DNA from: a virus
Lineage: Duplodnaviria; Heunggongvirae; Uroviricota; Caudoviricetes
DNA length: 64,000 bases
Virus record (IMG/VR): IMGVR_UViG_3300037589_000184
Coordinates: 34,523 to 98,522 of that record
Direction: 5' to 3' (one strand)
Made by a program: the position numbers and the translations under genes. The notes under the pieces were generated by a model, which ran no database searches, was not told the DNA's origin, and was given only the letters and a program-made list of their open reading frames with translations. Of the stretch, positions 41,517-64,000 are shown piece by piece (position 1 is the first letter of the stretch; every line of letters begins with the position of its first letter).

Positions 41517-41588
41517 GGCCCGTTAGCTCAGTGGCTAGAGCAATGGTCTCTAAAACCGTGGTCATGGGTTCAATTCCCATACGGGCCT
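41517..41588 (+). tRNA. tRNA with anticodon CUA (amber/UAG suppressor tRNA); amino-acid identity undetermined
   Basis: Full cloverleaf: acceptor GGCCCGT/ACGGGCC, U8, D-stem GCTC/GAGC with an AGTGGCTA loop, anticodon stem ATGGT/ACCGT, loop C-U-CUA-A-A (U33, anticodon CUA, A37), 4-nt variable loop, T-stem ATGGG/CCCAT with loop TTCAATT, and discriminator U. Confidence 0.85.
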
Positions 41589-41661
41589 CTTAACATTAAT
41601 TAATTGTATTATGAAAAAAGATACAGAATACTAGGTAAACAAAGGGGACTTTATCACAGTA

Positions 41662-43728: not shown

Positions 43729-43757
43729 AAGGTAGGTTTCGGCCTACCTTTTTTTAA
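43729..43757. terminator. bidirectional rho-independent terminator between convergent blocks
   Basis: AAGGTAGG-TTTCGG-CCTACCTT flanked by an A-tract and TTTTTT. It overlaps the stops of the last + gene (43730) and of the 1549-aa - gene (43754). Confidence 0.55.
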
Positions 43758-46700: not shown

Positions 46701-48403
46701 GATACCTTTGCAACACCATGGGAGGCCAACAGTGTGGAGATCTCATGTGTGGCCATGTCCACAAAATCCTCAAGCTTTTCGGCCTGCTCCTCGACCAATC
46801 TGTCATAGTTCTGCCTACCTATCTTGGATATGGTCTCCTGTCTATAGTCATCACTGGCTGAAAAATGTGGTGCAAATCTCTGGAACCGGGCATCCTCTGC
46901 AAGTTCCGGGATTTTGGTAATATCAAGGAACTCCGTGTTGTCATTGAGCCAAGAATATTTTTCCACAAGGGAGGTGTTCACCTCTTCCCAGTTCCTTGCC
47001 ATAATGGCCTCACTGTACTTTTTGTTGAACTTACGGAAAAAATTTGCCTGTGCTTTGTACCATTTGTTTGAGTAGGGGCCTACCAATCTTCCTGTCCTGT
47101 TACCATTCTCCGTTTTCTGGTAGAACAAATCATAGCTCACTTCGGAAAAGAGGGAGTTCAGGGGTCTCCAAGATATTCCATATCCCTTTTCCAAAAGCTT
47201 CCTCTTTACCTTGGGGACAAGTGCATTCATCTTCTGTACCTGTTCTGCGGCATAGGACTTGTTCTTGCTCCTACTGTTCTCAAGTTCCAACTTTATAAGC
47301 TGCCCCAACAATGAGTCCTGTCTTGTGAACTGTTTGTCTATGGTCCCGAAGAACTGTGATACCACACCTATGTCATCCTTGTCACTTAGGATCTCGTCCC
47401 TTATCTCCTTTGCCTGTTGTCCGGGGAATATGCTCTTTACCTTTGGTGAGGACTCTATAAGGTCCAACAGATATTTTTTCTTTGCATCGTACACCTTTGT
47501 CTTATGCTCGGTGACAGTGGCCCTCAACTTGTCAAGGGTCTTCTTTATCATGGGGTCCAGTTTTGTGGGGTCGGAGGTGTCCACGAACTGGTTCAATGTG
47601 TTCGATGAGGAATAGTCCGATATGATATCAAAATAGGATATCATGTACTCTGCCGTATGTATGTCCTCTATGGCAGGCCTGTCACCGGACAATAGTTCGT
47701 TTATAAGGGAAAGGTCGTCATTGAAGATGGACATGGTGGTCTCGAAGATATTGTCGGAATTGGTAAGGTCATGTACCTCTTTTTCCAGTCTCTCGGCAAT
47801 CTTCCTTACTTTCTGTATCTCCGATTTTATATCCTTCCCGGATTCATACTTTCTCCTTGCCAATAGGGTCTCCAATCTGGTGGTCACCTTTTTCAGGAGG
47901 TTTTTCTTTGCATTCAGGTAGTCGTTGAAATTTGTACTGTCCTGTCCATTGTCAAACGAGGGGAGCATATCGGAATCCATTTCCATGGCATGTTGCATGT
48001 CCTCCACTGTGGGGTACACCTGTCCGGCATAGACATATTCATTGGAGAGTGTCCTTTGTTCGTACATCTCGGCAAGGCTTTTCTCATTGTCCAGTTTCTG
48101 CTCATAGGCCTTCAACAGTACGGGAGGAAAATTGACTTCCAGACCAACGGTATTGCCAAGTTCCAACAACCTTGTCCAACCTCCGTACCTTTTGTCACCA
48201 AAGGTTTCCTCTGACCATTTCTCCACGGCCTGCTGCTTTTTTTGTGCTACCGCAAGTGCCTGCTCCTTGGTCCTGATCTTTTTCCCCGTCAGTTTAAAGG
48301 TGGCAACATTCCCCTCGAACACTATGTTCCTTGCCTTCCCCTTTATCAGTTCCCTTACCTTTTGGGTCCCACGGTCCTTGATTTCATTTATGTTGCATGC
48401 CAT
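43754..48403 (-). CDS. giant virion-associated protein (1549 aa) with Gly-zipper membrane segment
   Basis: Uninterrupted 4.65-kb ORF. Its ATG is 1 nt after the upstream gene's TGA. It has a central hydrophobic Gly-zipper, LFTTGFMAAGVMGLGVGMGGALALGAIAG. Confidence 0.6.
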   Translation of the reverse strand: MACNINEIKDRGTQKVRELIKGKARNIVFEGNVATFKLTGKKIRTKEQALAVAQKKQQAVEKWSEETFGDKRYGGWTRLLELGNTVGLEVNFPPVLLKAYEQKLDNEKSLAEMYEQRTLSNEYVYAGQVYPTVEDMQHAMEMDSDMLPSFDNGQDSTNFNDYLNAKKNLLKKVTTRLETLLARRKYESGKDIKSEIQKVRKIAERLEKEVHDLTNSDNIFETTMSIFNDDLSLINELLSGDRPAIEDIHTAEYMISYFDIISDYSSSNTLNQFVDTSDPTKLDPMIKKTLDKLRATVTEHKTKVYDAKKKYLLDLIESSPKVKSIFPGQQAKEIRDEILSDKDDIGVVSQFFGTIDKQFTRQDSLLGQLIKLELENSRSKNKSYAAEQVQKMNALVPKVKRKLLEKGYGISWRPLNSLFSEVSYDLFYQKTENGNRTGRLVGPYSNKWYKAQANFFRKFNKKYSEAIMARNWEEVNTSLVEKYSWLNDNTEFLDITKIPELAEDARFQRFAPHFSASDDYRQETISKIGRQNYDRLVEEQAEKLEDFVDMATHEISTLLASHGVAKVSDLPDNVQHSLNITLMRNSPFEFLSSHKRGQQGRVDYTIGNTGNQYQSHLKYNVFYPKSTVEKVDFNSGNRTSSDSGYFDPNFNQIKEDQDLLEFWEILNDSVTFMNMTLSDASKKLVHSSLPYMQKFTTDILLDKEMGTASKFSTLLSNTRETIGNLFSTRIRDIKASDIEDINNSNIQHIQDRVGLRYKTELLKLKQEYGNKPIPRKVLDKLREEVTHDVAMEQSFNLPVIIRAYLDMVSEYKSQRDSLPKISVFKNLYENIRLEKKNSFDPVSKIANSIRSRSRENGIQDKRMRANKRMDHWFNKNVMNLEDKEYWVTFGKFYDKNEKEYLKAAQEEKKRLSSLLESSEITEQQRDRYETELFEVDDTIANLGKNYTLAEMYNAVFNKFRIFVGLAWNIPSNITNRFQGWYSGAINDTGKYWTAGNFTVSNSFINKKGLRHIPGNNKYKNEIKKTRLFIDKLNIIQDATNEIDRARNDSGFTGTVKKLNPFYLTEYTEWHNQTPQILSMLMDERVIDKDGNQVPVFDGTSFPAHRIDENGEIVLKPEFDTPDNRATWQDFSNDRSADIKSRISEMIAILNGDYSRTGSTYIKSSNLGKTVMTFKTWLPNQIWQRFAYGQRDLALDKENFDGIYTGAYTSPKTSTASTALFTTGFMAAGVMGLGVGMGGALALGAIAGNVYLNRKARAGGEELLIAEQLADAGIAILKKMIGLPINTITGKDIVKAHQFDRLQVSEAERQNLQSLVTEISVLLGLALAKIIIKASFGPNDDEEPKTLAKGVPNPYLGKNSRTEQEKQFYNLMENQISKTLNDVTLYMNPDAMYNSMTTTSLMTWLERIKGISGAINKASQGLDEISTGPNAGESRLLNELQRTFVPSIGQGSLGFERMLEREFDPNENMDSWFFTDYKKDRKKARVDRSIERSKLLEYWKSEFDYDNQDIPTQKELDAVITKLINKEINATAPYPARYLYDDEQQYIGSD

Positions 48404-48404
48404 A

Positions 48405-51400
48405 TCAAATACAATCTGGTAGTTTCTTATGATTCGATTCAGGAAGCAGGTCCGTCACCGGTTCCTGTGGTGTCTGTGTATCAGGATCGAAGTCCGTGTC
48501 CACATTCTTCTTGAATGTATCAAAGGTATTGTTTTTTTGTCTTTTGAGGGTCTCTTCCTCTATAAAAACAAGGGTGTCCAACAATGCGGACTCTGCAAGT
48601 GAGCCTGATTTTATATCTGGGTTCAACGCTCTCAATATCCTCATAACTGCCTCCCTGAATTTATCAACGAGGGTCATATTGGACCTTTTGTACATTACCT
48701 TTGACATTTCCTCTTGGAACTTGGGTTCCGTAAGGGCAGTGGTAACAAATTCAAATATGTTCACGGAACCATATATATAGGCATCGTTCTCGTTGAACTC
48801 CGTGGGCAATCCAGGTTTTCTGTCATCCAGTTTCTTTTTCAGTACCTCTGTGGCCTCTGCCCCTATATGTTTCTTGAATTCGTTGAACACAAGGTGCAGA
48901 TTGGTCACATATCCGGGAACGGTGATGTCCGATCTCAATGTATTGCCGTCACTCTCATAGTATTTCCTCAGTTCCGTAGATGTTACCGAATGTACCGATT
49001 CATGTACAAAGGTACGGGCAGTCTTTTCTGGCCCCTTCATAAGGGAGTTGTCCACGTCAAGATAAATGGTGTCCTCTTTCCTGTTGTACCTCCCCGAGGC
49101 ATTGGTGCCCCTCCTTACCTTTATGTTCGTACTCTCCTTCAATACGGGAATCAGTGCCCTTGCGGCCTCTGGAAGGTTCTTGTACCTCTCGAACTTTGTG
49201 TTGGAGATCATTTCCATCACATCGGCAGGAAGACTGTCATCCGTTATGTCAAAAGGGTTGGTCAACATCTTGGCAGTGGCCTTCTTTATATTTGGCTCTT
49301 TTTTCGGCCTTGTGTCCACATTGTCCAAAAGGGACTTTGCATCCTGTTCATTGTACTGGTACTCCGACATACCATGTGTTCCCAAGATGGATATCCTTTT
49401 ATAAAGGGAGTTGCCCTGATGCTCAAACAAATGGAACTTGTCCTGTTTTCTTTTGCTCTTGGTGGGTACCCTCATCGATATGAACTTTGGCCTGTCATCA
49501 CTGTTCAAAATGAACGATGTCATCTTACTGCCCTTTCCCTCCTGTGGGGAAAACAGTTGTTTCTGTTGTTCCTTACTATACTGCCTTGCCTTTTCGGGAA
49601 AATGCTGTATATACTGTTTGGTGAACAGGTGGGTACTGTTTTCAGTGGTCTCCCTGTGCCCCAATACTTTTTGGAATATATCGGGCCTTCTGTTAGAGTT
49701 ATAGGACTGCATCACATTGGCAGCGGAAACAAACCTGTCCCCTGATCTTACGCCCACGGACTCAAGATACTCTATGGGCACATATTTTATGAACTGGATG
49801 GCCTCCTGTATCCCTCCCTCTATGTAGGCATAGGTTATAAGATCCTGTGCAAGTTCCCTAGTGGAATATGGTGATCCATTGAGGTCTGGCAATGGCCTGT
49901 CCTCCACTATCAGTTCGGCAAAGGAATTGTAAAGGTACTCCTCATCAAAATTGTCGTTGGATGTATTGTTGAACTTTATCAATGAAGGTTCCCCCATATT
50001 GCCCAGTGAGTATGAGAACTTGTTCAACAACCTGTTTTCCTTTACTGCATTTGTCCCCTGTGAGAATCCCCCGAACTTTTTGCCCCTGTTGGTGATGTCA
50101 TTGAGGTACCTTGCCAAGGAAACATTGGTGTCCGAGTCCATAAACAATCTTTTTCTTTCATTGTTGGCAGTATCGGTGAACAATCCATTGTTCTTCCTTG
50201 AATAGATATACTTCTTGATTTCCCTGATGACTTCCTGTCTTCCCTCGATTTCCTTAAAGCTGCTCTCTGTGTCCGTGTTCGAGACAATAAGGGTCTCATT
50301 GACCACTGAGTTGAAATATCTGTCATTATATGGGAAATATGAGTTCCAGAGACTGTTGCCCAATCTTGTGCCCTCAAGGACTATCTGTCCCTGTGGTGTC
50401 CTTGCCTGCATATAATTGTCACCGACTATATGGTATCCCTCTGGGGCCTCCCCTCCCTCTATCGGCCTACTGTCACCTATAAGGGAGAAGGCATTGGCCA
50501 CTCTCTGGTTGTTGGGGAGATCTGCAAGGTTGCGGAAAAGTACAGCGGATTCCACTATGGACTTTCCTAGATTGTTGGTATTCAGTACAGACTGTAACCT
50601 TGATATGCTCCTTGCATAGGTATCGAGTTCAAGGAACTTTGCCAATGCGGCCAACTGTACCTTTTTGTCCTCTCCGAAGGAACTTATTCCCTCCAACATA
50701 TTATCCCCCGTCAACATGGTGGACCAATCCACTTCCTCGTATGTATCGGATGTCAATAGACTGCCCTCCGAATATACAAGGTTTCCATTTGAATATGTTG
50801 ACACAAGGTCTGCCACTGTCCTTTCCTGTAGGTCACGGACATAGTCGGACACTATCCCCTTCCCGTTCTCCATACGGGATACATATTCCCTCAATATGGG
50901 CTGTGAGAGCAACAGATAGGAAATGGAGTTCCCATTGCTGTCCTTGTCAAAACCAAGTGCAGTGAGCAGGGAATCCACATTGATGGTAGTGGAGTTTATG
51001 TTCACCCTACCAAGTATCTGTTCCTTCTCATTGTCAGTGGCAGTGTTCTGCCTTTCGGCAAACACTTCTGCAACGGATCTTTCCCCATCCAATGTCCTTT
51101 CCCTTCCAAGTGTGCCATCCGATCTTAGATTGCCCATCACCACTTCTTTTGGAACCATTTCATCCTCTCCTACATTCTCCATCAATCTCAATGGATCCGG
51201 AACCTGTTGTGAAAGTCCGTGGAAGGTCACATAGTTTGAGTAGACACCAATGGCAAGCTTACCTGCCGCACCAAGTCCCATCTTCTTTTTCTGGTACTCA
51301 TCGGACAACATGGTAAAGGACGTAACATCCTGATTATCAGACAATGCTTCTATCATATCTGCCTGTCCGGATGCAAACTTCATTGAAAGTACCTTATTGA

Positions 51401-54400
51401 TCTTCTTCTGAACCTCTGTGTCCGGATTGGAGAACACGGCCATGTGGATCTTTATGAACTCGTTCTCAAGGAGCTTCTCATCGAACTTTTCATTTACAAG
51501 GTCTATCTTCTCCTGTATGTTGGTCAACTTATCATTTATTGCCTCTTCATAGGCATCCCCCAACATTGCCCTCATCAACCTGTCCTCTGGGCTGTCCTTT
51601 ATCAATTGCTCCTTTTCAAGGGCATCCAACAGACCTTTCAACCTGCTTTCCCTGTGCTCCTCGGAGAGTATGGAAATCTTGCCATTGGTCTCCACTATGT
51701 GGTTCAACTGATATGCGGTCTCCTTATCGATATCATAGTCAAGTCCCTTCTGTTTTGTAAAGTTTTTTGGTACTATCATAAGATCCCCTACCTCTGGTGG
51801 GAGAATACCCACTATCTCTATGTTGGATCCGGACACATGTGAGGATGTGGGGGTACGGAAACTGAAATTTCTGAGCAATGCCGGGTCCACCATATCCATG
51901 TTGAGACCAAATGTGCCATCTTCGTTTTCCACAAGATAGACATAAGCACCATTCTTTTTCTGGTATAGGTCCATAAGGTTTCCATTGGCATCCTTGAACT
52001 TTGATGGCATCAATACCTGTGCAGGCTGCATCTTTCCATCCACTTCTTTTGCCCCTTGTAGCTCCTGTCCATTCCACCCCTGTAACCTTATTATACGGGA
52101 CCTGTCCATATCATCGAGTGTGGAGAGTGTTGCAAAACCTGTCTCAGATCCTGCAACAAAGGAATTTCCGGGTATCTTGAAATTCATCAACCTGTTGGAC
52201 ACAATGGAATTCAAAAGGGATTCGTACCTATTACTGTTGGTGGAGAGCCATAATGGGACCTTGAATTCCTGATAGGTGTTTCCATTGATATCCGCTTTCT
52301 CCTCAAGTTCCAATCCCTTGATATCCTGTATGGGGTATCCCCTTTTCTCGGCCTCGGATTTCAAAAGGGACTGTAACTTTTCCATTGTCACAGAGCTGTC
52401 CACTGGCTCCCCGTTGTCATCCAATCCAAGCTCACGGAAAAGTTTTTTTCTTTTTGAAGCAACCAGATCCGTGAACACTGAGTTGTACCTGTCATATAGC
52501 TGTTGGCCATCAAGTTCTTCTCCATTGTACGCAAACCCCTTTGCCTTCATGACCCCATCACCGAACAACAATTTGAACATCTGTGTCCCCATTGAAACCT
52601 TATCTTCCTTGACCTGATCGGATTTGAAGGGCACATCCTGCTGTATCCTGAAACTGTCCCTTGATAGTTCCAACATGGTCTCCTCTATGTCCTCAAGTTC
52701 ATCGGAGAAGATATCCTTTGCATTTGACATTGCCCCTACTTTATTGGCAGTCTGGTAGGACAATCTCACGGGTTTTCCATGTTTGGCCTCAAGTTCCTCC
52801 ATCTTCTCCCTGACCCTGTCAAGTGAGGTGCCTGCCGTAAGTTGTGGGATCAGGGGGAATGAGGAGGACTTTATGTACACTGTCCTCATCACATCCTGTA
52901 CAGGATCATATACCTGCCCGGTGAACACGGGCTTTATGGGCTGTAATACAAGCCCCATCTGTTCCTTTGTCAAAGGTCTCTCCGCCAAGAGTGCATCCTT
53001 TATTTCCGACATCTGGGAATCGGACAGCCTTCCTTGGTTCTGTAGTATATGTACATGTTCCCAAACAGTGGTATATTCCTGTGCATCCGTGGACTCTATG
53101 TCAAAGTAATCCGAAAGTTGTGGAAACGTGTCGGCAAGAGTGTCCCTTACCTTTGCGGCCTCTTCCTTTCTTCCATTTGACACAAGGTCCGAGTAGGTCT
53201 GCAACAACGGTCTTGCTTTTTGTACCCCTTCCTGCCCATAGAACAGGGATACCAGATATTCGGAGTTTTCCGAGATGTCCACGGAATCCTTTGCAAACAG
53301 TTGTATGTAGGCATCATTGAGGGAATTGGCCAACTTGTTCCCGGGGGCTATCAAGAGGGCCAACCTCTTTCCAATATTGGTACCTATCTTCTTTGAGGTA
53401 TCTATATAGAACTGGTCATTTGCGGAATGTACCAAAGGTCTGATGTTCAGTTTCAGTTCATTGTACATTTCACGGCTTATGGCACCTGTGGACACAAGAC
53501 CATCGATTCCCTTCAAGAAACTTGAATGGTCGGCATAATGGGAGAAAAGTCCCTCTTTTCCATAGGCCTGTGCAATTGCCCTTATCCTTTGGTTGTCCAC
53601 TCCCAGTTTTGAGAACAGTTTATCCTGTGAATAAAGGGCGGGATCCCCTGCAAAAAGATAGAAGGAATTTGCATTTGCCACCATGGAATTGAGCACAAAA
53701 TCATAGGTTCCCAACCTGAACTTTTTATCAAGGTCCCCCTTGCCCATGGAAAGATACTTTTTGTCGAACAGATCTAAGGATGTGATCTTTCCACTGCTGT
53801 CCCTTTCGACAAGGCCATTTTCCCAAAGGGCCATTTTTTCGTTCACCAATTCGGATATAGTGGTCTCCATGGTGTCCAACATCTGCTCTTTGAAGTTCTG
53901 TTCCACATAGTCCAAAGTGACCTTATCGGAAACGGAGATGTATTTTATCAACCTTATCCCACCCTTGTCCTTCACATTGTTGAGCTGTGGCAATAGGTGG
54001 AACATCTGGGCACCGAGGTCATAGCCCTCTATATCGGTCCCATTGACATCTTTTGAAAACTTCAACATACGTTTCAGTTCCGGCAATATCAATTGGTCGT
54101 ACATAAGCTCCCTCAATGACTGTGACAACTTTACATTACCGGTAAGGTCATCTACCAAAAATGCTGAATCGGCCTCTTCCAAAAAGTTGAACACCCCTGT
54201 CTTGAGCATCAACATCTGGGATTTGTCCGACATTGTGGGAAGGAACATGTTGGCCATCCTCATTCCATAACCCTTGTACTTTCTTTTTATGGTGCCCTGT
54301 TGTGTATCCTGAAACCCCGTAAGCTTTGCAAGATCATGGTCCATGGTGTTGAGGTCGGTGATGGAAGAAAAATTGGAAGATGATTTTCCCAATTGTTTCA

Positions 54401-57400
54401 ATGCCGTGATACCATTATGACTGATGCCGAACTTCTCGGCAAAATTTGGCTCGTTCTGCAAAAGGTCGAGTACCAATGAATTGGATGAGAAGGAAATGTT
54501 CCCGAACTCCCCCAACAATCTTTTATCCGTAAGTGCAGATCTCTTTAGATCGTTTACCCTGTCCGTCACAAATTTTGTGGGGACCTGTCCGGATACCTGT
54601 TTGCCCCCGTCCCTAAAAGTAAGGGTCATTGATTGTGGGGTATACTTTGCCTCTATCTTGGAGAGTGTGTTCAATACCCCTTGCATATCGGTAAAGGGGT
54701 GGTTCTTCTCATTTTCCTCAAACTCCGTGTTCCTTACATGATCCTTGGTGATATTGTCCAGATATTCCCTGAGCAGGGAGAAGATGCCAGTTTTGGTATA
54801 GAACTGCTCGTCGTATTTTTTATATGAACTGTCATAATAGAACTTTCCGTCCTTTAGTTCCCCCCAAGTCTGGTCCGAGACCTCCAATCCAAAATTTGAT
54901 AGCCATTCCCTTATCCTTATATCGTCCACCAAATGTTTTTCGGCCCCCCAAGAATCATAGGTATCCAACAGCTTCTTTGCAAATACCTTGTTGATGGTGG
55001 CAGTTTCCTTGCTCTGGTCAACGAGTTTGGTGACCATGAAATTGTTCCTCCATTTATCCCTTACCAATCTTGTGACCTCGTTTGCATTGGTATCGAATAT
55101 CTTCAATGTTGTCCCATTGTTACCAGTACTGTACATGGCAAACTTCATCTGCAACGCATGTTTTGTGTAGTTGTACACAAATTCCCTTTTTATCTGGTCA
55201 TCGGCAGCTTCCAATTTTTCGATCAATTCCGATACCCATGGCTCGGTCTGTTCCATTTCCCTCAGTTTCCCCAACATCGTGTGGTAATCGGACTGTATGT
55301 CCACTCCTGTACCAAAGTATTGGGCCACACTGTTGTACACATCGTTGAAGCCTATATAGGTGGGGAGTCCCAAAAAGCCCCTTTTAATGTTGCCATTGGG
55401 AGAGTACTTTCTTATCCCGGCCATGAACCTTCTCAATCTATAGGAGGTCTTCTGTTTTCCATTTTCCTCTATGGAGGATTTGTTGTAGTCCTTTTCCCTT
55501 ATGGACATATCCTCCTCAAGTTTTGCCTCATCGTCCAAGGTCTCGGTGATGCCCGTATATTTGCCTACTTTCTGTAATGCCTTGTCCTCTATGGATTTCC
55601 AGTTGTCCTCTATGCTCTGATACACATCAAGTGCATTTCTGTAATCCTTGATGAGCTTTGAGAGCCTTTCCTGTTGGGAGGGGTTTGCATCATAAAGTTC
55701 CTGCAATTTTGGCAAAACCTCCTGTATCTGTTTTTTTGAAGATCCCGTGATGGTGCTATAGGATCCCTTGAGTTCTTCCAACAACAACTTCTTGTTTATC
55801 TTTGCACCATATTTGAGGTCCACACTGGTCAGTAGATTATTGAACAGGAAGTCCACTATCTGGCTTTCCTGTAATATGGAAAGTCCCGGGGCAATGTTGA
55901 ATATGTTCGAGAGCCTATCGACACTGTCCAGTTCGGCAGGCAGTTCATCCATATCCTCGGAAAGGTTGAAACCTATGTCCTTGATAAGATCCTCATAGCC
56001 CTTGATCGTTCCCTCTATGTCATCTTCCACTGTGGCAGGGATTTCCGGAACCTGTACCTCAGAAGATGCTCTTTCTTTGAAATCCTCTATCGGGGCCTGT
56101 TCGGTATCAATGTTGAAAGTGACCACTGGTTGTATGGAGGTTGCATATATAGGATTCTCCTGTGTACCAACATTGAAGGATTTTATGTTGGTGGTGAGGA
56201 CCGTCTTCAAATAGTCGGGGTACCCCATCTCCATATCCTCCACAATACCATCCTTTATATTGGCCATGGACATCTTTCTTGAAATGAACCTCAACTGTGT
56301 CAGTTGTCTGAAACCTTCCTCATTTGATGTGAACAGGGTCTTTCCATATTGGGTCAGGGTGTTTGAGTTCCCCTGTGGTACACCATAGGCATTCATAAGG
56401 TCAACGGCATCCCTACCTATCCTAATATCGGTACCGGTGATCTTTTTCACGTCTTCAACTATTTTAGAGGCCTTTTTTTCCTCCATATCATAAGGGGTCC
56501 CCGCAACATACTGTTCATACATGGATCTTACCCTTTCATTGTCAAGGTTCAACCTTGCCTGTGCGGCCCATATCCACCTAAGGGTCTCAAGGGCCTCTGT
56601 ATGTATACCATTATTACCAAGGTTGTTCCTTCTGGTCACAGGAAATGCCCTCCATGTCTCTTTCCCCGTTTCCGGGTCCGTACCTATTCTCCTGATGTCC
56701 CAAGTATGTCCATCGGTCCTATATCTACTTTTTTCGTTTATCTGTTTGAAATCCTTTGCCCTATCGTTGACCAACATCCTGTTCTCGTTCTCAAATGGGA
56801 CATTATAATCAAGTTCAAGTGAGGACCCTCTTTGTACGGCAATGATGGACTGTGGATTTGCTTCCGAGATGGATATCTCGGGCCTGTCCATGGGTATCCT
56901 ATAAAAGGCCCCCTCCCTTTTGGAGGTCACCTTCAATGTGGAGGTACTGCCGTCAATAATGCTGTTCCTCAATGTCGATACATTGTCCTTGCCCTTCTGT
57001 ATCAATTCGGCATGTGATGGGGAAATGTTCGAAAGGTCCACAGTATCCATGTCACTGGTAGGGTCGGACACATTGAAAGGGTTGTACCAGTCCACATCAT
57101 GTATGTATGCCATGGGCACACCTTTTTCATTAAGGGCAAAGATCGGCACCCTGTCCCTGAACTCCTGTGTATCCCTGAAATTTCTGTCGGACAGTTCCCT
57201 CTCAGAGACCCAGTCCGAAAAGGGTTTTACGATTGCTGAACCATCCGGGTTCCTGCCAACTGTGAGCTTTATCTTTTGCCACATGTCCTCCGGGGCCACC
57301 ATTACCTGTATGCTGCTGCCCTCATTGAACTTATCAGGGTGTAAAAGATCGGAGAAGTCCACTATGCTGTCGGCATCTATGTTGAGCCTTCCATCATCTG

Positions 57401-60400
57401 CCTGTACCCTTTTCCAGTTTCCTTCCTCGTCCACAACTTCATTGTAGGCAATGGCATTGAACCCCAGTTTGGTGTCCGCAATGGCCACCCTTTTTCCACT
57501 TACTTTCTTGATAGGGACATTCTGATCTGTGAACCCGACTATGGGAGCAGCTTTCTCCCCTATCCTCTCCTCCTGTGAGTCGAGATGCTGTGAGACTTCC
57601 TGTTGTCTTTCGGGAAGGGTCTGTGAGAATATGTTGTTTATGGCATCCAATGCCTGCTGTGTCACTCTTTTCAATGGGTCGAACAGCTCATCATATATGG
57701 CCTCGAAGTCAGGCTCCTGATAAGAGTTGCCCTCCCATCCCAATCTATAGGCATTGAAGTTCTCCTCTATCATTTCCTGTGGGGCATAGGCCAATAGATG
57801 GTGCATGAACTCCTTGAAGTCCGGTTTTCTGTTGTTCTTCTTTTCAAGTGCCCCATAGATGTTGGCCACACTGTCAACAATGGTCTGTCTCTGCTCGGGG
57901 GTCAGGCCCTCCGTACTGTTGGGAAGTTCATCAAAATTGTCCAGAACATCATCCCTGACAACGAATGCGGAATTTATTTCGGATACATTGTCATTGATTT
58001 CTTTCCCGATATCCGGATCCAAGGGTTCCTCAACGACCTCTGCCGGAGTTTCCTCTATAGGTGTCCCGGATACGTTCCTGTCTATGGTGTCCTCCTGTTT
58101 CTGTTGATCGGCATCTGCTTTGAGCTTTACCTGTTGTTTGAAAAAGTCGGATATCTGTTTCCTTTCGTTCTTTGTAAGCCCCTGTCCAAAATTCTTTGAT
58201 GCCGTGGACATTACTGTGTCCACTGTGGCCTCGTCCACTTCTTCCATCAGGTTCAACTGTTTGGCAACCTCTGATGAAAGTTCTTTTTTCTGTCTCTCGC
58301 TCTCTTGGAATTTTGGTGATACCTGTCTGTTGAACTCGACAAGGGAATCGTCCACTGTCCTCTGCACCTCTTCTTCCACTGTATTCAAGAGGTCATAGGT
58401 CTGTACAGAGGCAATGTCCTCTTTTTCCAGTACATCCAAGAACTTTTTATAGTTTGCTTTCTCTGTCCCGTCCACAAACTCGTTCTTTGTATAGAGATCA
58501 TCAAGGGTATAGGATACATTGAGGTTCTTCCGTTTGATAAGTGCATCAAGGTCCTCCCTCACATCATCGGAGATCTCCACCTTTCTCTGGGAAAGGTCGT
58601 TTAATGTCCTTCTTCCAATAATCTTGTTTGACTGTAACTGTACTATGTCCCCGATATTTGGAAGGTGCCTGTACCTGTCATATACTGTTTTCAGTTTATC
58701 CACATCCTGCTTTGCAAGTTGTGCATTCATCCTTGTGCTTTCCGATACATCTGTATTGGTTGACAATCTGTCAAGGGAACTTATGAACTCATCCGCAGTG
58801 TTTGTCTTAAAGGATTTGACGGCAAGATTGTAGAACATCTTTTGTTCCACCTTATCTGCCTGATCGTTTTTACCCTCATTTCTCAGTTGCTGTACCTTCA
58901 ATCTCTGGTCAGCTATGGTAAATCCCGATTGGGCAGTGGAGAAGTCAATGATCGAGGATACCTCTTCATCTGATACGGCATTCCTCAATTGTGACATTCT
59001 TTTTCTAATCTCTTCCCTGTTTCTGTAGAATTCTGGATTGTTGATCCTACTGGGCAGTGTCAATCCGGCCCCAAATGCCCTGAACCCCACTCCCATAAGG
59101 GCAGTCTGCCCAAGTATGTCTATATGGGTATCAGCGGAACCAAGGGCCTTTATCTCGTCAAGGTTCCCACTGTTCAGGGAGTTCAAGGGAGCGACAAAGA
59201 GTTCCTCAAAATATTCCCCGGGGATACTGTTCAGACCTATGGCATCGGAGAACTTCGATGTCCCCTCCTTTATGTTCTTATAGACTTTTCCCAACCTTGT
59301 GTTGACAAAGTTCCCACTTGCCCTTTTCAATACGGGGAGCTTTGCCAGTCCCGAATCAAAAAGTTTTCCACCAAACTTTTCGGATACCAGTTCATTTGCG
59401 GTATCAAAGAATCCCTGTCTTATGGCCTTGCCCACACTTACGGGTACCATTCTGTCCAACATCTCGTCGTATGAGATAGTCCCCGGAACATCCTTTGTGC
59501 CCAATCTCCCATCTATCTCATCAAGCTCTATTGAAAGTTCTTCGGAAAGGTCCCCGGAAATAGACAATATTTCCTGTCTCCTCTTTTCATCGGCCTTCCT
59601 CAATATGGCCACTTCATCTTTTGTCCTGTTATAGAGGTCATCCCTGAAATACACCTTTGACACACTTCCATTGTCATCAAAATCGACCTCCATTGCACCT
59701 TTGTACCTATCAACCATATTGCTATAGGTCAAGGGCATGGCAAGGGCCTGTGTGCCCACTGCAAGTGTGTTTGCGGCAGTTCCCGATATTCCAGTGGCAA
59801 CGGATCTCCTTACCCCCTGTTTGATAAGCTGCTTGGCACCCCCCTGTACACCTGTCCTGACACTGTTCGACACTCCACTTGTAGCTGCCATCTGTGCAAG
59901 AAAGGGCAGGGATTTCATGGTCCCATCGACTATCCTATAGCCACGGGAGTGTTGCATGTCACTTGAGGACTGTATCTGTTCCGTTAGGGCAGTGGCCTTG
60001 AACAGGGCATCTTCGGAGGGTTCCAGTTGTGACCCCTTTTCAGCCTTTAACAATACTGGCAAGGTGAACATCACATCCTGTACGAACCCGTACATTCCCA
60101 GTGTGCCCAGTTCCCTGTCCATTCCATCAAGGGCAGCCTGCCACCCAGAGGATTTGTTTATCACGGCATCCACCGATTCCATGGATTCCTCCAACTTGTT
60201 CATGGCCATCTTGAACTCCCCTCTTTTATGTGAAAGGAGCTTGTCCTCCCCCTCCCCATACTCAAATTCAAGGAATGCCATACGGGCATCACTCAGGTTC
60301 CTGTTCAATCTTTCTTTTATTTCATTGAGGACCGGAAGGGATTTTGCATGGATGCTCTCATTTATTTCGTTGACCCTTTTTGCATTCTCACCCGACATAC

Positions 60401-60935
60401 CAGAGGTCTCTGAAAGGAAGAACCTTCCTGCACCCAACAACATGTTCTCAAGGAACTTTGGTTGTCCCGACAATGTAGGCTCGTACCATTTCTTTGCGAT
60501 CAGGTCATTTGTTTCCTGTCTTTCCTTTAAGACCTGTGAGTGGGAGGGGTCCTCTCTGAGAATCTCATCCTTTCTCTTTTTCAGGTCCTTCAAATTATTG
60601 TAGTCCTCCTTGGCAAGGATCTCCTGTGCCACTGTCTCCACATAATCATTTGGTCTATAGGACACCTGTTTCTCGATGGCCTGTGCAGCTTCCCTCTCTA
60701 TCCGGAGGTCCTCTTCGGACTTTTTGACAAGGTTCTTCAACAGTTCGTCATTGGAATAGTTTCCGGATGTTGCACGTTGGGCATTCTCCAATGTACTTTC
60801 ACTGGAAGTCGTGCCACCTGTCTCCACTTCTGTCAGAGTGGATGGCCTGCTCAAGGGATTTTCCTTGGCATCACGGTACATTTTCAGGATTTCGTCCTGA
60901 GTCAAAGGAGCTGAAATTTCGTTCTTCTTGCCCAT
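48405..60935 (-). CDS. giant multidomain virion protein (4176 aa), candidate virion RNA polymerase or polyvalent ejected protein, with C-terminal zincin-like HExxH domain
   Basis: Uninterrupted 12.5-kb ORF. DYDID (DxDxD) is encoded at about 51726-51740 in the context KQKGLDYDIDKETAY. HESVH (HExxH) is encoded at about 48990-49004. It is flanked by other large - strand genes with 1-2 nt intergenic gaps. Confidence 0.65.
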   Translation of the reverse strand: MGKKNEISAPLTQDEILKMYRDAKENPLSRPSTLTEVETGGTTSSESTLENAQRATSGNYSNDELLKNLVKKSEEDLRIEREAAQAIEKQVSYRPNDYVETVAQEILAKEDYNNLKDLKKRKDEILREDPSHSQVLKERQETNDLIAKKWYEPTLSGQPKFLENMLLGAGRFFLSETSGMSGENAKRVNEINESIHAKSLPVLNEIKERLNRNLSDARMAFLEFEYGEGEDKLLSHKRGEFKMAMNKLEESMESVDAVINKSSGWQAALDGMDRELGTLGMYGFVQDVMFTLPVLLKAEKGSQLEPSEDALFKATALTEQIQSSSDMQHSRGYRIVDGTMKSLPFLAQMAATSGVSNSVRTGVQGGAKQLIKQGVRRSVATGISGTAANTLAVGTQALAMPLTYSNMVDRYKGAMEVDFDDNGSVSKVYFRDDLYNRTKDEVAILRKADEKRRQEILSISGDLSEELSIELDEIDGRLGTKDVPGTISYDEMLDRMVPVSVGKAIRQGFFDTANELVSEKFGGKLFDSGLAKLPVLKRASGNFVNTRLGKVYKNIKEGTSKFSDAIGLNSIPGEYFEELFVAPLNSLNSGNLDEIKALGSADTHIDILGQTALMGVGFRAFGAGLTLPSRINNPEFYRNREEIRKRMSQLRNAVSDEEVSSIIDFSTAQSGFTIADQRLKVQQLRNEGKNDQADKVEQKMFYNLAVKSFKTNTADEFISSLDRLSTNTDVSESTRMNAQLAKQDVDKLKTVYDRYRHLPNIGDIVQLQSNKIIGRRTLNDLSQRKVEISDDVREDLDALIKRKNLNVSYTLDDLYTKNEFVDGTEKANYKKFLDVLEKEDIASVQTYDLLNTVEEEVQRTVDDSLVEFNRQVSPKFQESERQKKELSSEVAKQLNLMEEVDEATVDTVMSTASKNFGQGLTKNERKQISDFFKQQVKLKADADQQKQEDTIDRNVSGTPIEETPAEVVEEPLDPDIGKEINDNVSEINSAFVVRDDVLDNFDELPNSTEGLTPEQRQTIVDSVANIYGALEKKNNRKPDFKEFMHHLLAYAPQEMIEENFNAYRLGWEGNSYQEPDFEAIYDELFDPLKRVTQQALDAINNIFSQTLPERQQEVSQHLDSQEERIGEKAAPIVGFTDQNVPIKKVSGKRVAIADTKLGFNAIAYNEVVDEEGNWKRVQADDGRLNIDADSIVDFSDLLHPDKFNEGSSIQVMVAPEDMWQKIKLTVGRNPDGSAIVKPFSDWVSERELSDRNFRDTQEFRDRVPIFALNEKGVPMAYIHDVDWYNPFNVSDPTSDMDTVDLSNISPSHAELIQKGKDNVSTLRNSIIDGSTSTLKVTSKREGAFYRIPMDRPEISISEANPQSIIAVQRGSSLELDYNVPFENENRMLVNDRAKDFKQINEKSRYRTDGHTWDIRRIGTDPETGKETWRAFPVTRRNNLGNNGIHTEALETLRWIWAAQARLNLDNERVRSMYEQYVAGTPYDMEEKKASKIVEDVKKITGTDIRIGRDAVDLMNAYGVPQGNSNTLTQYGKTLFTSNEEGFRQLTQLRFISRKMSMANIKDGIVEDMEMGYPDYLKTVLTTNIKSFNVGTQENPIYATSIQPVVTFNIDTEQAPIEDFKERASSEVQVPEIPATVEDDIEGTIKGYEDLIKDIGFNLSEDMDELPAELDSVDRLSNIFNIAPGLSILQESQIVDFLFNNLLTSVDLKYGAKINKKLLLEELKGSYSTITGSSKKQIQEVLPKLQELYDANPSQQERLSKLIKDYRNALDVYQSIEDNWKSIEDKALQKVGKYTGITETLDDEAKLEEDMSIREKDYNKSSIEENGKQKTSYRLRRFMAGIRKYSPNGNIKRGFLGLPTYIGFNDVYNSVAQYFGTGVDIQSDYHTMLGKLREMEQTEPWVSELIEKLEAADDQIKREFVYNYTKHALQMKFAMYSTGNNGTTLKIFDTNANEVTRLVRDKWRNNFMVTKLVDQSKETATINKVFAKKLLDTYDSWGAEKHLVDDIRIREWLSNFGLEVSDQTWGELKDGKFYYDSSYKKYDEQFYTKTGIFSLLREYLDNITKDHVRNTEFEENEKNHPFTDMQGVLNTLSKIEAKYTPQSMTLTFRDGGKQVSGQVPTKFVTDRVNDLKRSALTDKRLLGEFGNISFSSNSLVLDLLQNEPNFAEKFGISHNGITALKQLGKSSSNFSSITDLNTMDHDLAKLTGFQDTQQGTIKRKYKGYGMRMANMFLPTMSDKSQMLMLKTGVFNFLEEADSAFLVDDLTGNVKLSQSLRELMYDQLILPELKRMLKFSKDVNGTDIEGYDLGAQMFHLLPQLNNVKDKGGIRLIKYISVSDKVTLDYVEQNFKEQMLDTMETTISELVNEKMALWENGLVERDSSGKITSLDLFDKKYLSMGKGDLDKKFRLGTYDFVLNSMVANANSFYLFAGDPALYSQDKLFSKLGVDNQRIRAIAQAYGKEGLFSHYADHSSFLKGIDGLVSTGAISREMYNELKLNIRPLVHSANDQFYIDTSKKIGTNIGKRLALLIAPGNKLANSLNDAYIQLFAKDSVDISENSEYLVSLFYGQEGVQKARPLLQTYSDLVSNGRKEEAAKVRDTLADTFPQLSDYFDIESTDAQEYTTVWEHVHILQNQGRLSDSQMSEIKDALLAERPLTKEQMGLVLQPIKPVFTGQVYDPVQDVMRTVYIKSSSFPLIPQLTAGTSLDRVREKMEELEAKHGKPVRLSYQTANKVGAMSNAKDIFSDELEDIEETMLELSRDSFRIQQDVPFKSDQVKEDKVSMGTQMFKLLFGDGVMKAKGFAYNGEELDGQQLYDRYNSVFTDLVASKRKKLFRELGLDDNGEPVDSSVTMEKLQSLLKSEAEKRGYPIQDIKGLELEEKADINGNTYQEFKVPLWLSTNSNRYESLLNSIVSNRLMNFKIPGNSFVAGSETGFATLSTLDDMDRSRIIRLQGWNGQELQGAKEVDGKMQPAQVLMPSKFKDANGNLMDLYQKKNGAYVYLVENEDGTFGLNMDMVDPALLRNFSFRTPTSSHVSGSNIEIVGILPPEVGDLMIVPKNFTKQKGLDYDIDKETAYQLNHIVETNGKISILSEEHRESRLKGLLDALEKEQLIKDSPEDRLMRAMLGDAYEEAINDKLTNIQEKIDLVNEKFDEKLLENEFIKIHMAVFSNPDTEVQKKINKVLSMKFASGQADMIEALSDNQDVTSFTMLSDEYQKKKMGLGAAGKLAIGVYSNYVTFHGLSQQVPDPLRLMENVGEDEMVPKEVVMGNLRSDGTLGRERTLDGERSVAEVFAERQNTATDNEKEQILGRVNINSTTINVDSLLTALGFDKDSNGNSISYLLLSQPILREYVSRMENGKGIVSDYVRDLQERTVADLVSTYSNGNLVYSEGSLLTSDTYEEVDWSTMLTGDNMLEGISSFGEDKKVQLAALAKFLELDTYARSISRLQSVLNTNNLGKSIVESAVLFRNLADLPNNQRVANAFSLIGDSRPIEGGEAPEGYHIVGDNYMQARTPQGQIVLEGTRLGNSLWNSYFPYNDRYFNSVVNETLIVSNTDTESSFKEIEGRQEVIREIKKYIYSRKNNGLFTDTANNERKRLFMDSDTNVSLARYLNDITNRGKKFGGFSQGTNAVKENRLLNKFSYSLGNMGEPSLIKFNNTSNDNFDEEYLYNSFAELIVEDRPLPDLNGSPYSTRELAQDLITYAYIEGGIQEAIQFIKYVPIEYLESVGVRSGDRFVSAANVMQSYNSNRRPDIFQKVLGHRETTENSTHLFTKQYIQHFPEKARQYSKEQQKQLFSPQEGKGSKMTSFILNSDDRPKFISMRVPTKSKRKQDKFHLFEHQGNSLYKRISILGTHGMSEYQYNEQDAKSLLDNVDTRPKKEPNIKKATAKMLTNPFDITDDSLPADVMEMISNTKFERYKNLPEAARALIPVLKESTNIKVRRGTNASGRYNRKEDTIYLDVDNSLMKGPEKTARTFVHESVHSVTSTELRKYYESDGNTLRSDITVPGYVTNLHLVFNEFKKHIGAEATEVLKKKLDDRKPGLPTEFNENDAYIYGSVNIFEFVTTALTEPKFQEEMSKVMYKRSNMTLVDKFREAVMRILRALNPDIKSGSLAESALLDTLVFIEEETLKRQKNNTFDTFKKNVDTDFDPDTQTPQEPVTDLLPESNHKKLPDCI

Positions 60936-63141: not shown

Positions 63142-64000
63142 TAAGTTGATAATCCTTGTCCAGAGTGATCCCGTATTTGGAAAGTTGGTCTATGAGTGCC
63201 TTTACGATCTTTCTCTGTTCCACTGCATTGAGATCCTTTCCAATTTGCTGTATCCCCGTACCCATAGTGGAAATGTCCCTTCCCCTTTGGGTATAGAAAT
63301 TGTCCTTGTCCTGTCTGTCGGCAAGGTCCCTCTGCTGTTCACCTGCCATGACGACCCTGTCCTGTTGGTTCTCAAGGCCTGCCCTTTCGGAGAGAAGTCC
63401 CAACATTGTCCTTGCAAAGGCATCCTGTGCATCCAATCTTGCCCTGTTTGCCTGCATCTCGGCACCAAGGTCAAGTGCCCTTGCGGCATTCACGCCCCTT
63501 ACGGAATTTCTCCCCCTTTTGATGAGGGCATCCCTTGAAAGGTCTATTTTTCTTTCGGTGTTCGTCTTCAATGAGGCTGCCTGCTCCTGTGCCTGTTCAT
63601 TGGTGTCCAGTGCATCTTTTCCAAAGTCCTTGAAGGCATTTATGTTCGGAGTATCCGTTGCACGGTTCTTCAAAGTGTTCCTCAAAGGTCCAAAAGCACT
63701 GACCAGATCCCCCAAGATACCAACGGCATCCCCTGCCGTGACCTCACTGTTTCCGAACAGATTGTCCAAGAAGGTGCTTGCTGCACCACTGTTGGAGGTT
63801 TCAATGGAGTCCCCACCTGAAAAGTCGGTGATTCCGGGGATGGAGACATCGGACATTCCAAGATCGTTACTTGCATTATCCGATTCCATGATATCGAAGT
63901 CCTTGAACTTTGGGTCCCTTTTCTTAAAGAGATTGGAGAATATCCCGTCACCAAAAGCTGACTCCCCCTCTTTTCCAAAGAACATGTCCACCATCTGTTG
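63116..64000 (-). CDS. hypothetical protein, 5'-truncated by window end (at least 292 aa)
   Basis: The ORF is still open at the window edge. The first in-window Met is at 63994. Coiled-coil-like and Ala, Arg and Gln-rich. Confidence 0.45.
   Translation of the reverse strand, partial: QQMVDMFFGKEGESAFGDGIFSNLFKKRDPKFKDFDIMESDNASNDLGMSDVSIPGITDFSGGDSIETSNSGAASTFLDNLFGNSEVTAGDAVGILGDLVSAFGPLRNTLKNRATDTPNINAFKDFGKDALDTNEQAQEQAASLKTNTERKIDLSRDALIKRGRNSVRGVNAARALDLGAEMQANRARLDAQDAFARTMLGLLSERAGLENQQDRVVMAGEQQRDLADRQDKDNFYTQRGRDISTMGTGIQQIGKDLNAVEQRKIVKALIDQLSKYGITLDKDYQLSVKEEKNG

What the first reader, a model, noticed from the sequence alone, without database searches (positions are those of the whole stretch)
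48405..60935. 12.5-kb ORF encoding a 4176-aa protein with DxDxD and C-terminal HExxH motifs: candidate virion RNAP or polyvalent ejected protein
One uninterrupted ORF sits in a back-to-back operon of giant - strand genes with 1-2 nt spacers, typical of crAss-like tail or ejection-protein modules. It contains DYDID in the context NFTKQKGLDYDIDKETAY, which could be the Asp-triad metal site of a two-barrel (DPBB) RNA polymerase as in crAss-like gp66. About 200 aa from the C-terminus it has TFVHESVHSV, a zincin HExxH motif common in MuF-like or polyvalent proteins injected with phage DNA. Either function would be notable for a protein of this size.
Basis: partly seen in the sequence, partly recalled or inferred. 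Interest (0 to 1): 0.65.

Follow-up and report, generated by a model that had tools for sequence, protein, structure and literature searches.

The report
Giant crAss-type virion RNA polymerase polyprotein
This 4176-residue phage protein fuses an RNA polymerase of the kind that crAss-like phages carry in the virion and inject to start infection, an unknown N-terminal module and a small zinc-protease-like domain; it is a new example of a published kind of protein, not a new kind.

Summary
The ORF, both motifs and the 1-nt gene spacers are exactly as described.

- **RNA polymerase:** residues ~1684-3871 are collinear with phi14:2 gp66, the solved and biochemically proven virion RNAP of a crAss-like phage. 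DYDID aligns column for column with its catalytic DFDID. The barrel-1 lysines, bridge helix and trigger loop are conserved in 29 sequences.
- **N-terminal module:** residues 1-1650 are a separate ORF in some relatives. Their function is unknown.
- **Neighbour:** the next gene (1549 aa) is the gp65/gp49-type RNAP-associated protein.

Closest cultured relatives are the Flavobacterium phages of the FpV4 group, where the homolog is labelled only "virion structural protein". Published work already notes that these proteins are fused into huge polyproteins in some phages. The fused form is the norm in this clade: 74 of 75 giant representatives carry the motif.

Verdict: new member of a known kind, of modest interest. 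Virion packaging, RNA synthesis and proteolysis are inferred, not shown.

The parts
48405..60935 (-). Whole ORF: 4176-aa polyprotein (N-module, then gp66-type RNAP, then zincin-like domain).
   Evidence: It matches phrog_16227 'virion structural protein' with E=0. It is 34.5% identical end to end to FpV4 gp32, 4287 aa.
55986..60935 (-). N-terminal module, aa 1-1650, function unknown. It is a separate ORF in split relatives.
   Evidence: Residues 1005-1631 align to the stand-alone 1650-aa ORF of L019. An exhaustive search finds 124 clusters, mostly inside giant proteins. There is no reproducible Pfam domain. Similarity to phi14:2 gp67 is weak and collinear only.
55887..56138 (-). Acidic linker and module junction, aa ~1600-1683.
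   Evidence: Residues 1601-1700 hold 23 D/E against 5 K/R. The L019 gene boundary falls here. L021 has a second zincin-like copy inserted at this position.
49323..55886 (-). gp66-type RNA polymerase module, aa 1684-3871.
   Evidence: It is 33% identical over 2391 columns to the 2427-aa RNAP ORF of L019. Profile alignments are collinear with gp66 residues 167-2017 and with crAss001 gp50.
50874..53120 (-). Catalytic core, aa 2606-3354: barrel 1, connector, barrel 2, bridge helix and trigger loop.
   Evidence: phmmer to 6vr4 gives 5e-16. blastp to gp66 residues 952-1656 gives 5e-26. Near-invariant residues in 29 sequences are listed. The model's only significant structural match is 6vr4.
51726..51740 (-). 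DYDID, aa 3066-3070: predicted Mg-binding catalytic triad.
   Evidence: It aligns with gp66 1361-DFDID-1365. D3066, D3068, D3070 and K3071 are near-invariant. Mutating any of the three Asp in gp66 abolishes activity (preprint 10.1101/2020.03.07.982082).
51216..51323 (-). Bridge-helix equivalent, aa ~3205-3240.
   Evidence: It aligns to gp66 residues 1529-1559. Q3215, G3225, I3229, Y3232 and N3234 are near-invariant.
50958..51080 (-). Trigger-loop equivalent, aa ~3286-3326.
   Evidence: It aligns to gp66 residues 1598-1636 and shares the DNxK motif with gp66 and crAss001 gp50.
48579..49241 (-). Zincin-like domain, aa ~3899-4119. It contains HESVH (48990..49004) and the conserved E4062 (48750..48752).
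43754..48403 (-). Downstream 1549-aa gene: gp65/gp49-type RNAP-associated protein, without the zincin domain.
   Evidence: It matches FpV4 gp33. Profile residues ~960-1190 match gp65 982-1218 (prob 94.9%, E 4.5e-8) and crAss001 gp49 923-1158 (prob 95.4%, E 2e-8).
60937..63141 (-). Upstream 734-aa gene of the same block, a homolog of FpV4 gp31. Function unknown.
43731..43755 (.). GC-rich hairpin followed by a T-run, where the minus-strand giant-gene block meets the plus-strand replication block. Probably a terminator.
   Evidence: Read directly from the sequence: GGTAGGtttcggCCTACCttttttt. Not tested further.

Best explanation
The gene encodes a fused 'transcription-block' polyprotein of a crAss-like-type phage with a genome of about 98 kb.

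**Shown by sequence and structure comparison**
- Residues ~1684-3871 are a single-chain two-barrel DNA-dependent RNA polymerase orthologous to phi14:2 gp66 and crAss001 gp50. D3066, D3068 and D3070 are the Mg-binding catalytic triad. The barrel-1 lysines, bridge helix and trigger loop are conserved.
- Residues ~3880-4176 are a gluzincin-like HExxH...E domain, orthologous to the N-terminal domain of phi14:2 gp65.
- Residues 1-1650 are a module that is a separate gene in some relatives.

**Inferred from the experimentally studied relatives**
- The protein is made late, packed into the capsid as cargo in a self-inhibited state, and pushed partly unfolded through the tail into the host ahead of or with the DNA.
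- It then refolds and transcribes the early genes, here probably the plus-strand small-gene and replication block, independently of the host RNAP.

**Inferred more weakly**
- The zincin-like domain processes or activates the polyprotein, for example at the acidic linker at aa ~1600-1683, or attacks a host target.
- The N-module serves packaging or ejection.
For: **Homology to gp66 / PDB 6vr4**
- phmmer E=5e-16 and blastp E=5e-26, with DYDID aligned to DFDID.
- Profile alignment is collinear over gp66 residues 167-2017, with probabilities of 85-99.6% for four of five blocks.

**Catalytic residues:** 42 near-invariant core positions across 29 sequences, including gp66 and crAss001 gp50.

**Experimental basis in relatives**
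- gp66 makes RNA and needs each Asp of the motif. It is rifampicin-resistant and transcribes early genes (preprint 10.1101/2020.03.07.982082).
- crAss001 gp47, gp49 and gp50 are found in virions by mass spectrometry and assigned to the capsid cargo zone; the authors infer partial unfolding for ejection (PMC10172136).

**Fusion**
- L019 and L020 encode the modules as separate ORFs of 1650 and 2427 aa.
- 74 of 75 giant representatives carry the motif, and 62 also carry the downstream HExxH.

**Zincin:**

**Synteny** with FpV4 and phi14:2.

**Genome layout:** the giant-gene block converges on a replication module.
Against: - No experiment exists on this phage or on its FpV4-group relatives. Their 'virion structural protein' label has no stated experimental source in the records I saw.
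- In the split relative L019 the first His of HExxH is Lys (KEIVH), so catalysis by this domain may be dispensable.
- Cleavage of the polyprotein is conjecture.
- Homology of the N-module to gp67 is not established.
Confidence: 0.85

Rival explanations
1. The zincin-like domain is not a processing protease of the polyprotein. It is instead an ejected effector that cuts a host target, such as peptidoglycan, envelope proteins or defence proteins. Alternatively it is a non-catalytic structural domain.
For: - The phi14:2 authors themselves offer peptidoglycan digestion as an alternative role.
- In L019 the first zinc-binding His is replaced by Lys. This is compatible with a structural role in some lineages.
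Against: - H, E, H and the downstream E are near-invariant in 23 giant relatives, which argues for catalysis.
- In L021 a second copy sits precisely at the N-module/RNAP junction. That placement fits a cis-acting role at module boundaries better than a host-directed effector.
Confidence: 0.35
2. The protein is a structural or ejectosome protein whose polymerase core has decayed. It would be a pseudo-enzyme that only forms part of the DNA-ejection channel.
For: - Database labels say only 'virion structural protein'.
- More than half of the protein has no recognisable enzymatic domain.
- The N-module has conserved Gly-rich, moderately hydrophobic segments.
Against: - All three catalytic Asp, the following Lys, the barrel-1 lysines and the bridge-helix and trigger-loop residues are near-invariant across 29 divergent sequences, including two from phages where the enzyme is studied.
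- The core is the best-conserved part of the protein, at 60-69% identity to FpV4 gp32 against 20-30% at the N-terminus.
Confidence: 0.06
3. It is an N4-type virion RNAP (a T7-like single-subunit fold), or a mini-RNase III as JGI labels fragments of it.
For: - Its size and virion-RNAP role resemble N4 gp50.
- JGI names seven fragments that contain aa 3873-4176 '23S rRNA maturation mini-RNase III'.
Against: - The PDB sequence search finds only 6vr4, and no N4 or T7-type polymerase.
- Pfam and NCBIfam show no RNase III or Mini-III signal even at E up to 10.
Confidence: 0.01

Closest known systems
Cellulophaga phage phi14:2 gp66 (PDB 6vr4), the virion-packaged two-barrel RNAP of a crAss-like phage, together with its neighbours gp67 and gp65
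   Same: - The RNAP module is collinear with gp66 residues 167-2017.
- The catalytic D(F/Y)DID motif aligns, with Ile at the fourth position.
- The bridge helix and trigger loop are conserved.
- The zincin-like domain is homologous to gp65 residues 116-378.
- The C-terminal half of the downstream gene is homologous to the C-terminal part of gp65.
- The gene order and the convergent position against the replication block are the same.
   Different: - There is one 4176-aa chain here instead of separate gp67 (1797 aa) and gp66 (2180 aa).
- The zincin-like domain is attached to the RNAP C-terminus rather than to the N-terminus of the next protein.
- Identity is only ~24% in the core.
- The motif has Tyr instead of Phe.
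- N-module homology to gp67 is unproven.
Flavobacterium psychrophilum phages FpV4 and Fpv1-3 (genus Fipvunavirus), gp32, 4287 aa
   Same: The architecture matches end to end at 34.5% identity. DYDID and HExxH are conserved. The flanking genes gp31 and gp33 are the same.
   Different: The records annotate it only as a 'virion structural protein'. It comes from a different, cultured host system. NCBI places the genus outside the order Crassvirales.
Bacteroides phage crAss001 gp50, gp49 and gp47 (RNAP-associated cargo proteins)
   Same: The gp50 core aligns, with DFDVD in register. The C-terminal part of gp49 matches the window's 1549-aa protein. Virion presence is shown by mass spectrometry.
   Different: The proteins are separate in crAss001. 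No HExxH was found in gp49 or gp50. Gene order differs, with gp47 on the opposite strand.
Thermus phage P23-45 tape-measure-fused virion RNAP, and coliphage N4 gp50 vRNAP
   Same: These are giant virion-carried, ejected polymerases fused to non-polymerase modules, and they transcribe the first phage genes (abstracts).
   Different: In P23-45 a two-barrel RNAP is fused to a tape-measure protein. N4 vRNAP has a T7-like single-subunit fold (my own knowledge). Neither was recovered by any sequence search here.

Membership tests
crAss-like virion RNAP (gp66 family, single-chain two-barrel RNAP) | Significant, collinear sequence similarity to gp66 / PDB 6vr4. | tested here: met
   phmmer gives 5e-16 and blastp 5e-26. 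hhalign blocks cover gp66 residues 167-1768 at 85-99.6% probability.
crAss-like virion RNAP (gp66 family, single-chain two-barrel RNAP) | Catalytic DxDxD motif with Ile or Val at the fourth position, aligned to gp66 residues 1361-1365. | tested here: met
   DYDID at aa 3066-3070 aligns to DFDID. It is D[FY]D[IV]D in all 29 aligned sequences. The Ile/Val rule is stated in the preprint.
crAss-like virion RNAP (gp66 family, single-chain two-barrel RNAP) | Second-barrel basic residues, connector, bridge helix and trigger loop are conserved. | tested here: met
   Near-invariant residues are K2668, K2689, K2732, the QxDxP motif, Q3215, G3225, I3229, Y3232, N3234 and the DNxK motif.
crAss-like virion RNAP (gp66 family, single-chain two-barrel RNAP) | Two double-psi beta-barrel folds forming the active site. 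| tested here: inconclusive
crAss-like virion RNAP (gp66 family, single-chain two-barrel RNAP) | Lies in a block of giant virion-protein genes next to a gp65/gp49-type gene. | tested here: met
   Synteny with FpV4 gp31-33 and phi14:2 g068-g065. The 1549-aa neighbour matches gp65 and gp49.
crAss-like virion RNAP (gp66 family, single-chain two-barrel RNAP) | Packaged in virions, ejected, and performs rifampicin-resistant early transcription. | not testable with these tools
   This is known only for phi14:2 and crAss001.
Zincin-like metallopeptidase domain of gp65 orthologs | Homology to the N-terminal domain of phi14:2 gp65. | tested here: met
   An HMM of 23 C-terminal domains hits gp65 residues 116-271 and 286-378, with E=4.6e-12. 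The shared motifs are HExxH and N(I/V)xEF.
Zincin-like metallopeptidase domain of gp65 orthologs | HExxH on the active-site helix after a beta-sheet, plus a conserved third ligand. | tested here: met
   In the model, strands at residues 178-201 precede a helix at 210-229 that carries HESVH, with pLDDT ~85-93. H3978, E3979, H3982 and E4062 are near-invariant. Metal binding itself is not testable.
Zincin-like metallopeptidase domain of gp65 orthologs | Fold similarity to solved zincins. | tested here: met
Zincin-like metallopeptidase domain of gp65 orthologs | Membership of a curated peptidase family (Pfam or NCBIfam). | tested here: not met
   There are no hits above threshold. Relatives give only sub-threshold SprT-like and Peptidase_M76 hits. 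A PDB profile search was also negative.
Polyvalent or MuF-type ejected proteins | Presence of MuF, LPD or other PolyVal-associated Pfam domains. | tested here: not met
   The only hit is LPD14 at E=5.6e-4, 20.4 bits against a cutoff of 27. It is absent from five relatives' N-modules. There is no MuF hit.
Order Crassvirales (taxonomic membership of the phage) | Crassvirales-type capsid, portal and terminase genes, and their phylogeny. | not tested
   The structural genes lie outside the 64-kb window. The nearest cultured genus, Fipvunavirus, is listed outside Crassvirales. Fpv3 was described as related to and colinear with crAssphage, but it groups apart from the five human-gut crAss-like groups of the 2021 TerL analysis.
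Mini-RNase III (JGI label on fragments) | RNase III catalytic domain signature. | tested here: not met
   There is no Pfam or NCBIfam signal. The fold matches are zincins. The label is attached only to fragments that contain aa 3873-4176.

The most novel reading that the evidence does not exclude
The zincin-like domain is a built-in maturation protease. The 4176-aa chain would be packaged as an inactive polyprotein and cut at module boundaries, notably the acidic linker at aa ~1600-1683, during maturation or after ejection. This would release and activate the RNAP in fixed 1:1 stoichiometry with its N-module.

Three observations would then be evolutionary snapshots of a protease that migrates along the block to sit beside its cleavage sites:
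- the second zincin copy inserted exactly at that linker in relative L021;
- the zincin-to-neighbour boundary shift between phi14:2 and this clade;
- the degenerate KExxH in the already-split relative L019.
Probability: 0.3. Interest if true: 0.5.

Novelty: new member of a known kind. Interest (0 to 1): 0.3.

Why it matters
The finding gives a concrete, evidence-based function to a 12.5-kb gene that public records call 'hypothetical', 'virion structural protein' or, wrongly, 'mini-RNase III'.

The gp66-type injected RNA polymerase is present in an environmental clade around the Flavobacterium FpV4 phages, whose genus NCBI lists outside the formal Crassvirales. There it normally occurs as a single fused chain of more than 4000 residues.

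The mapped module boundaries, the catalytic residues and the zincin residues give direct targets for mutagenesis. They bear on an open question raised by the phi14:2 work: how the self-inhibited virion RNAP is activated, and whether proteolysis is involved. It is not a new kind of system.

Tried and rejected
- **Megablast** of the gene against 50,697 phage records found no match. Relatives are detectable only at the protein level.
- **Full-length query** to the search for homologous proteins timed out. The C-terminal 387 aa alone gave no hits in that word-indexed search.
- **An out-of-frame reference** and a core fragment that was too short gave empty PDB searches. These are artefacts of my queries, not evidence.
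- **gp67 relatives:** the IMG/VR scan returned only phi14:2 itself. tblastn found only short patches in other Cellulophaga phages. No gp67 family profile could be built, so the correspondence between the N-module and gp67 stays inconclusive.
- **LPD14 Pfam hint** rejected.
- **Tails beyond the zincin domain** in L015, L017, L018, L021 and L029 share no detectable similarity with each other, with gp65 or with the window proteins.
- **Downstream-protein HMM** did not hit gp65 directly. Only profile alignment of its C-terminal half did.
- **Promoter search for the vRNAP** was not attempted. The phi14:2 study found no common motif upstream of gp66-transcribed early genes.
- **Transmembrane helices in the N-module:** the best Kyte-Doolittle 19-residue windows reach only 0.85-1.3 in the window protein, below a typical TM threshold.
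- **JGI 'mini-RNase III' label** rejected.
Full report
**Observation.** The minus-strand ORF 48405..60935 is real and uninterrupted, and it encodes 4176 aa. It starts at ATG 60933-60935, four codons after the preceding in-frame stop, and ends at TGA 48405-48407. One nucleotide separates it from the 734-aa ORF upstream and one from the 1549-aa ORF downstream. From the protein's own composition, 1.8 DxDxD motifs are expected by chance, and a second, irrelevant one exists at aa 4146. That motif alone proves nothing. HExxH is expected 0.04 times.

**What the polymerase part is.** A PDB sequence search returns one significant hit, 6vr4, the virion-packaged RNAP gp66 of the crAss-like Cellulophaga phage phi14:2 (E=5e-16, window aa 2606-3354). 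A direct blastp against gp66, taken from NC_021806, gives E=5e-26 over gp66 residues 952-1656. It places DYDID exactly on gp66's 1361-DFDID-1365, inside the conserved block GILPxxxGDxxxxxxxxxxxxGxD(F/Y)DIDK.

In gp66, each of these aspartates is required for Mg-dependent RNA synthesis. The fourth position is Ile or Val in all crAss-like RNAPs, rather than the Gly of cellular enzymes (preprint 10.1101/2020.03.07.982082). The window protein has Ile there.

I aligned the cores of 29 sequences: the window protein, FpV4 gp32, relatives from the IMG/VR loci, gp66 and crAss001 gp50. This gives 42 near-invariant positions. They include:
- three lysines in the first-barrel region (K2668, K2689, K2732);
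- the QxDxP motif;
- R3027 and P3029;
- GxLP;
- G3064, D3066, D3068, D3070 and K3071;
- bridge-helix residues Q3215, G3225, I3229, Y3232 and N3234.

The trigger-loop DNxK motif is also shared with gp66 and crAss001 gp50. The gp66 landmark positions come from the paper.

Profile-to-sequence alignments extend the relationship far beyond the core:

| Window aa | gp66 aa | Probability |
|---|---|---|
| 1751-2150 | 167-572 (includes the cleft-blocking region) | 96.6% |
| 2151-2600 | 710-1019 | 96.3% |
| 2601-3100 | 952-1373 | 99.6% |
| 3101-3500 | 1606-1768 | 85.4% |
| 3501-3800 | 1925-2017 | weak, but collinear |

The pattern is the same for crAss001 gp50.

**What the HExxH part is.** HExxH is conserved 906-1102 residues downstream of the DxDxD in all 23 relatives that have both motifs. 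A profile of this 400-residue region hits the N-terminal region of phi14:2 gp65 (aa 116-378) with E=4.6e-12. The phi14:2 authors, citing Yutin et al. [quoted passage not shown]

The shared signature is hhHExxHxhT, followed about 80 residues later by Y-G-x-x-N-(I/V)-x-E-F. H3978, E3979, H3982, Y3992, P4007, Y4055, E4062 and F4063 are near-invariant. This is a two-His-plus-Glu, gluzincin-like ligand pattern.

No curated peptidase family is matched. The domain is therefore zincin-like by fold, motif and homology to gp65, but it cannot be assigned to a known family.

**What the rest is, and the fusion.** In phi14:2 the block reads g068, g067 (1797 aa), g066 (RNAP, 2180 aa), g065 (1421 aa), and it converges on the replication genes. 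In the window, and in Flavobacterium phage FpV4 (gp31, gp32, gp33), it reads 734 aa, 4176 aa, 1549 aa.

Among the 25 related IMG/VR loci, most whose giant ORF is complete in the locus have a single ORF of 4221-5398 aa. L019 and L020 instead have separate ORFs of 1650 aa and 2427 aa, with the DxDxD in the second. Direct alignment maps three regions:
- window aa 1005-1631 onto the 1650-aa ORF;
- window aa 1684-3871 onto the 2427-aa RNAP ORF, at 33% identity;
- window aa 3948-4148 onto the N-terminus of a further 1131-aa ORF.

The junction falls in an acidic linker, with 23 D/E against 5 K/R in aa 1601-1700. In relative L021 a second zincin-like copy, with HEEIH and SIEEFITYGLT, is inserted exactly at this junction.

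The downstream 1549-aa protein is the gp65/gp49 counterpart in its C-terminal half. It matches gp65 982-1218 at 94.9% probability and crAss001 gp49 923-1158 at 95.4%. So, relative to phi14:2, the zincin domain sits on the other side of the gene boundary.

Homology of the N-module to gp67 is unproven. Two weak signals are collinear: hhalign E=1e-3 for window aa ~515-890 against gp67 301-663, and a profile domain E=4e-6 in a single-target search against gp67 284-761. The whole-sequence score is not significant. No Pfam domain is reproducible in the N-module. Its conserved Gly-rich segments are only moderately hydrophobic.

**How common it is.** An exhaustive HMMER search with aa 451-1650 against 1.84 billion cluster representatives finds 124 clusters. 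Of these, 75 are proteins of at least 3500 aa. Among those 75, 74 contain D[FYW]D[IVL]D and 62 also have HExxH 800-1300 residues downstream. The fused architecture is thus the standard form in this clade. The exact protein occurs on contigs of about 98.4 kb in a JGI metagenome and a Logan assembly.

**Context.** The plus strand of the window carries a replication and nucleotide-metabolism block: Dda-like and other helicases, a DNA polymerase (best PHROG matches phrog_17 'DNA polymerase' and a DNA polymerase I family), an exonuclease, thymidylate synthase and ribonucleotide reductase. It converges on the minus-strand giant-gene block at a hairpin followed by a T-run. This is the crAss-like layout described in the literature.

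**Mechanism: shown versus inferred.** The orthology, the catalytic residues and the domain order are shown. The following steps are inferred from phi14:2 and crAss001:
- late synthesis;
- packaging as capsid cargo in a self-inhibited form;
- extrusion, partly unfolded, through the tail;
- refolding;
- host-RNAP-independent transcription of the early genes.

A proteolytic role of the zincin-like domain in processing or activation is inferred only weakly. The phi14:2 authors raise this idea, alongside peptidoglycan digestion, as an open question.

[quoted passage not shown] Fpv3 was reported as related to and colinear with crAssphage.

What this analysis adds:
- a residue-level domain map for this clade;
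- the different placement of the zincin domain relative to phi14:2;
- the evidence that the linker is a module boundary;
- correction of uninformative or wrong database labels.

This makes it a new member of a known kind. Interest 0.3.

Noticed in passing
window 9566-9953 (+): A phage-encoded tmRNA. Rfam RF00023 scores 65.7 bits against a gathering score of 47, over the full-length model. ARAGORN predicts the tag peptide GNVEDQIQANMDTVHAILGSEVEVAA.
   Followed up: partly
window 41517-41589 (+): A tRNA with a CUA anticodon, of amber-suppressor type; ARAGORN calls it tRNA-Pyl and Rfam confirms a tRNA. TAG ends 7 of 47 plus-strand ORFs, and also the minus-strand ORF 63116..63994 just upstream of the giant-gene block. 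The three giant-block genes end in TAA or TGA. This may signal late stop-codon read-through or recoding, as reported for crAss-like phages.
   Followed up: partly
L019 14461-19585 (same in L020): In the split relative, the region homologous to the window's C-terminus is divided. Profile columns 3-144 lie at the end of the RNAP ORF, and columns 134-375 at the start of a 1131-aa ORF. A 596-aa ORF with no Pfam hit lies between them. The HExxH there reads KEIVH, so the first His is lost.
   Followed up: partly
L021 giant ORF, aa ~1670-1890: A second zincin-like copy (HEEIH plus SIEEFITYGLT) is inserted at the position that corresponds to the window's acidic linker, aa ~1623-1685.
   Followed up: yes
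L023 versus L029: These are two contigs of one lineage. L029 has a single 5398-aa ORF, while L023 has 3883 aa plus 1534 aa, split between the RNAP and the zincin parts. This is probably a frameshift or an assembly error.
   Followed up: no
L015 and L024, downstream proteins, aa ~145-150: The protein encoded after the giant gene carries its own HExxH (HEILHAMSYKELR), which resembles the zincin motif, at a position reminiscent of phi14:2 gp65. These lineages may therefore have two copies. The profile hit was not significant.
   Followed up: partly
P0031 (a relative's C-terminal fragment), aa 818-901: A circularly permuted YpsA SLOG domain (Pfam PF12694, E=3.8e-10) follows the zincin-like domain in one relative. 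This is an extra module that the window protein lacks.
   Followed up: no
window 48408-49319 (aa 3873-4176): JGI/IMG names seven fragments that contain this region '23S rRNA maturation mini-RNase III'. No profile or fold evidence supports the name.
   Followed up: yes
window 59736-59792 and 59061-59117 (aa 382-400 and 607-625): Gly/Ala-rich, moderately hydrophobic segments are conserved in the N-module across relatives, for example AQT(L/A)hhGhxFGxhG. The Kyte-Doolittle 19-residue maxima for these two regions are 0.2-1.6 across the aligned relatives, mostly below a typical transmembrane threshold. A role in membrane contact during ejection is speculative.
   Followed up: partly
window 43731-43755: A GC-rich hairpin followed by a T-run lies exactly where the converging plus-strand and minus-strand gene blocks meet. 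It is probably a terminator.
   Followed up: no
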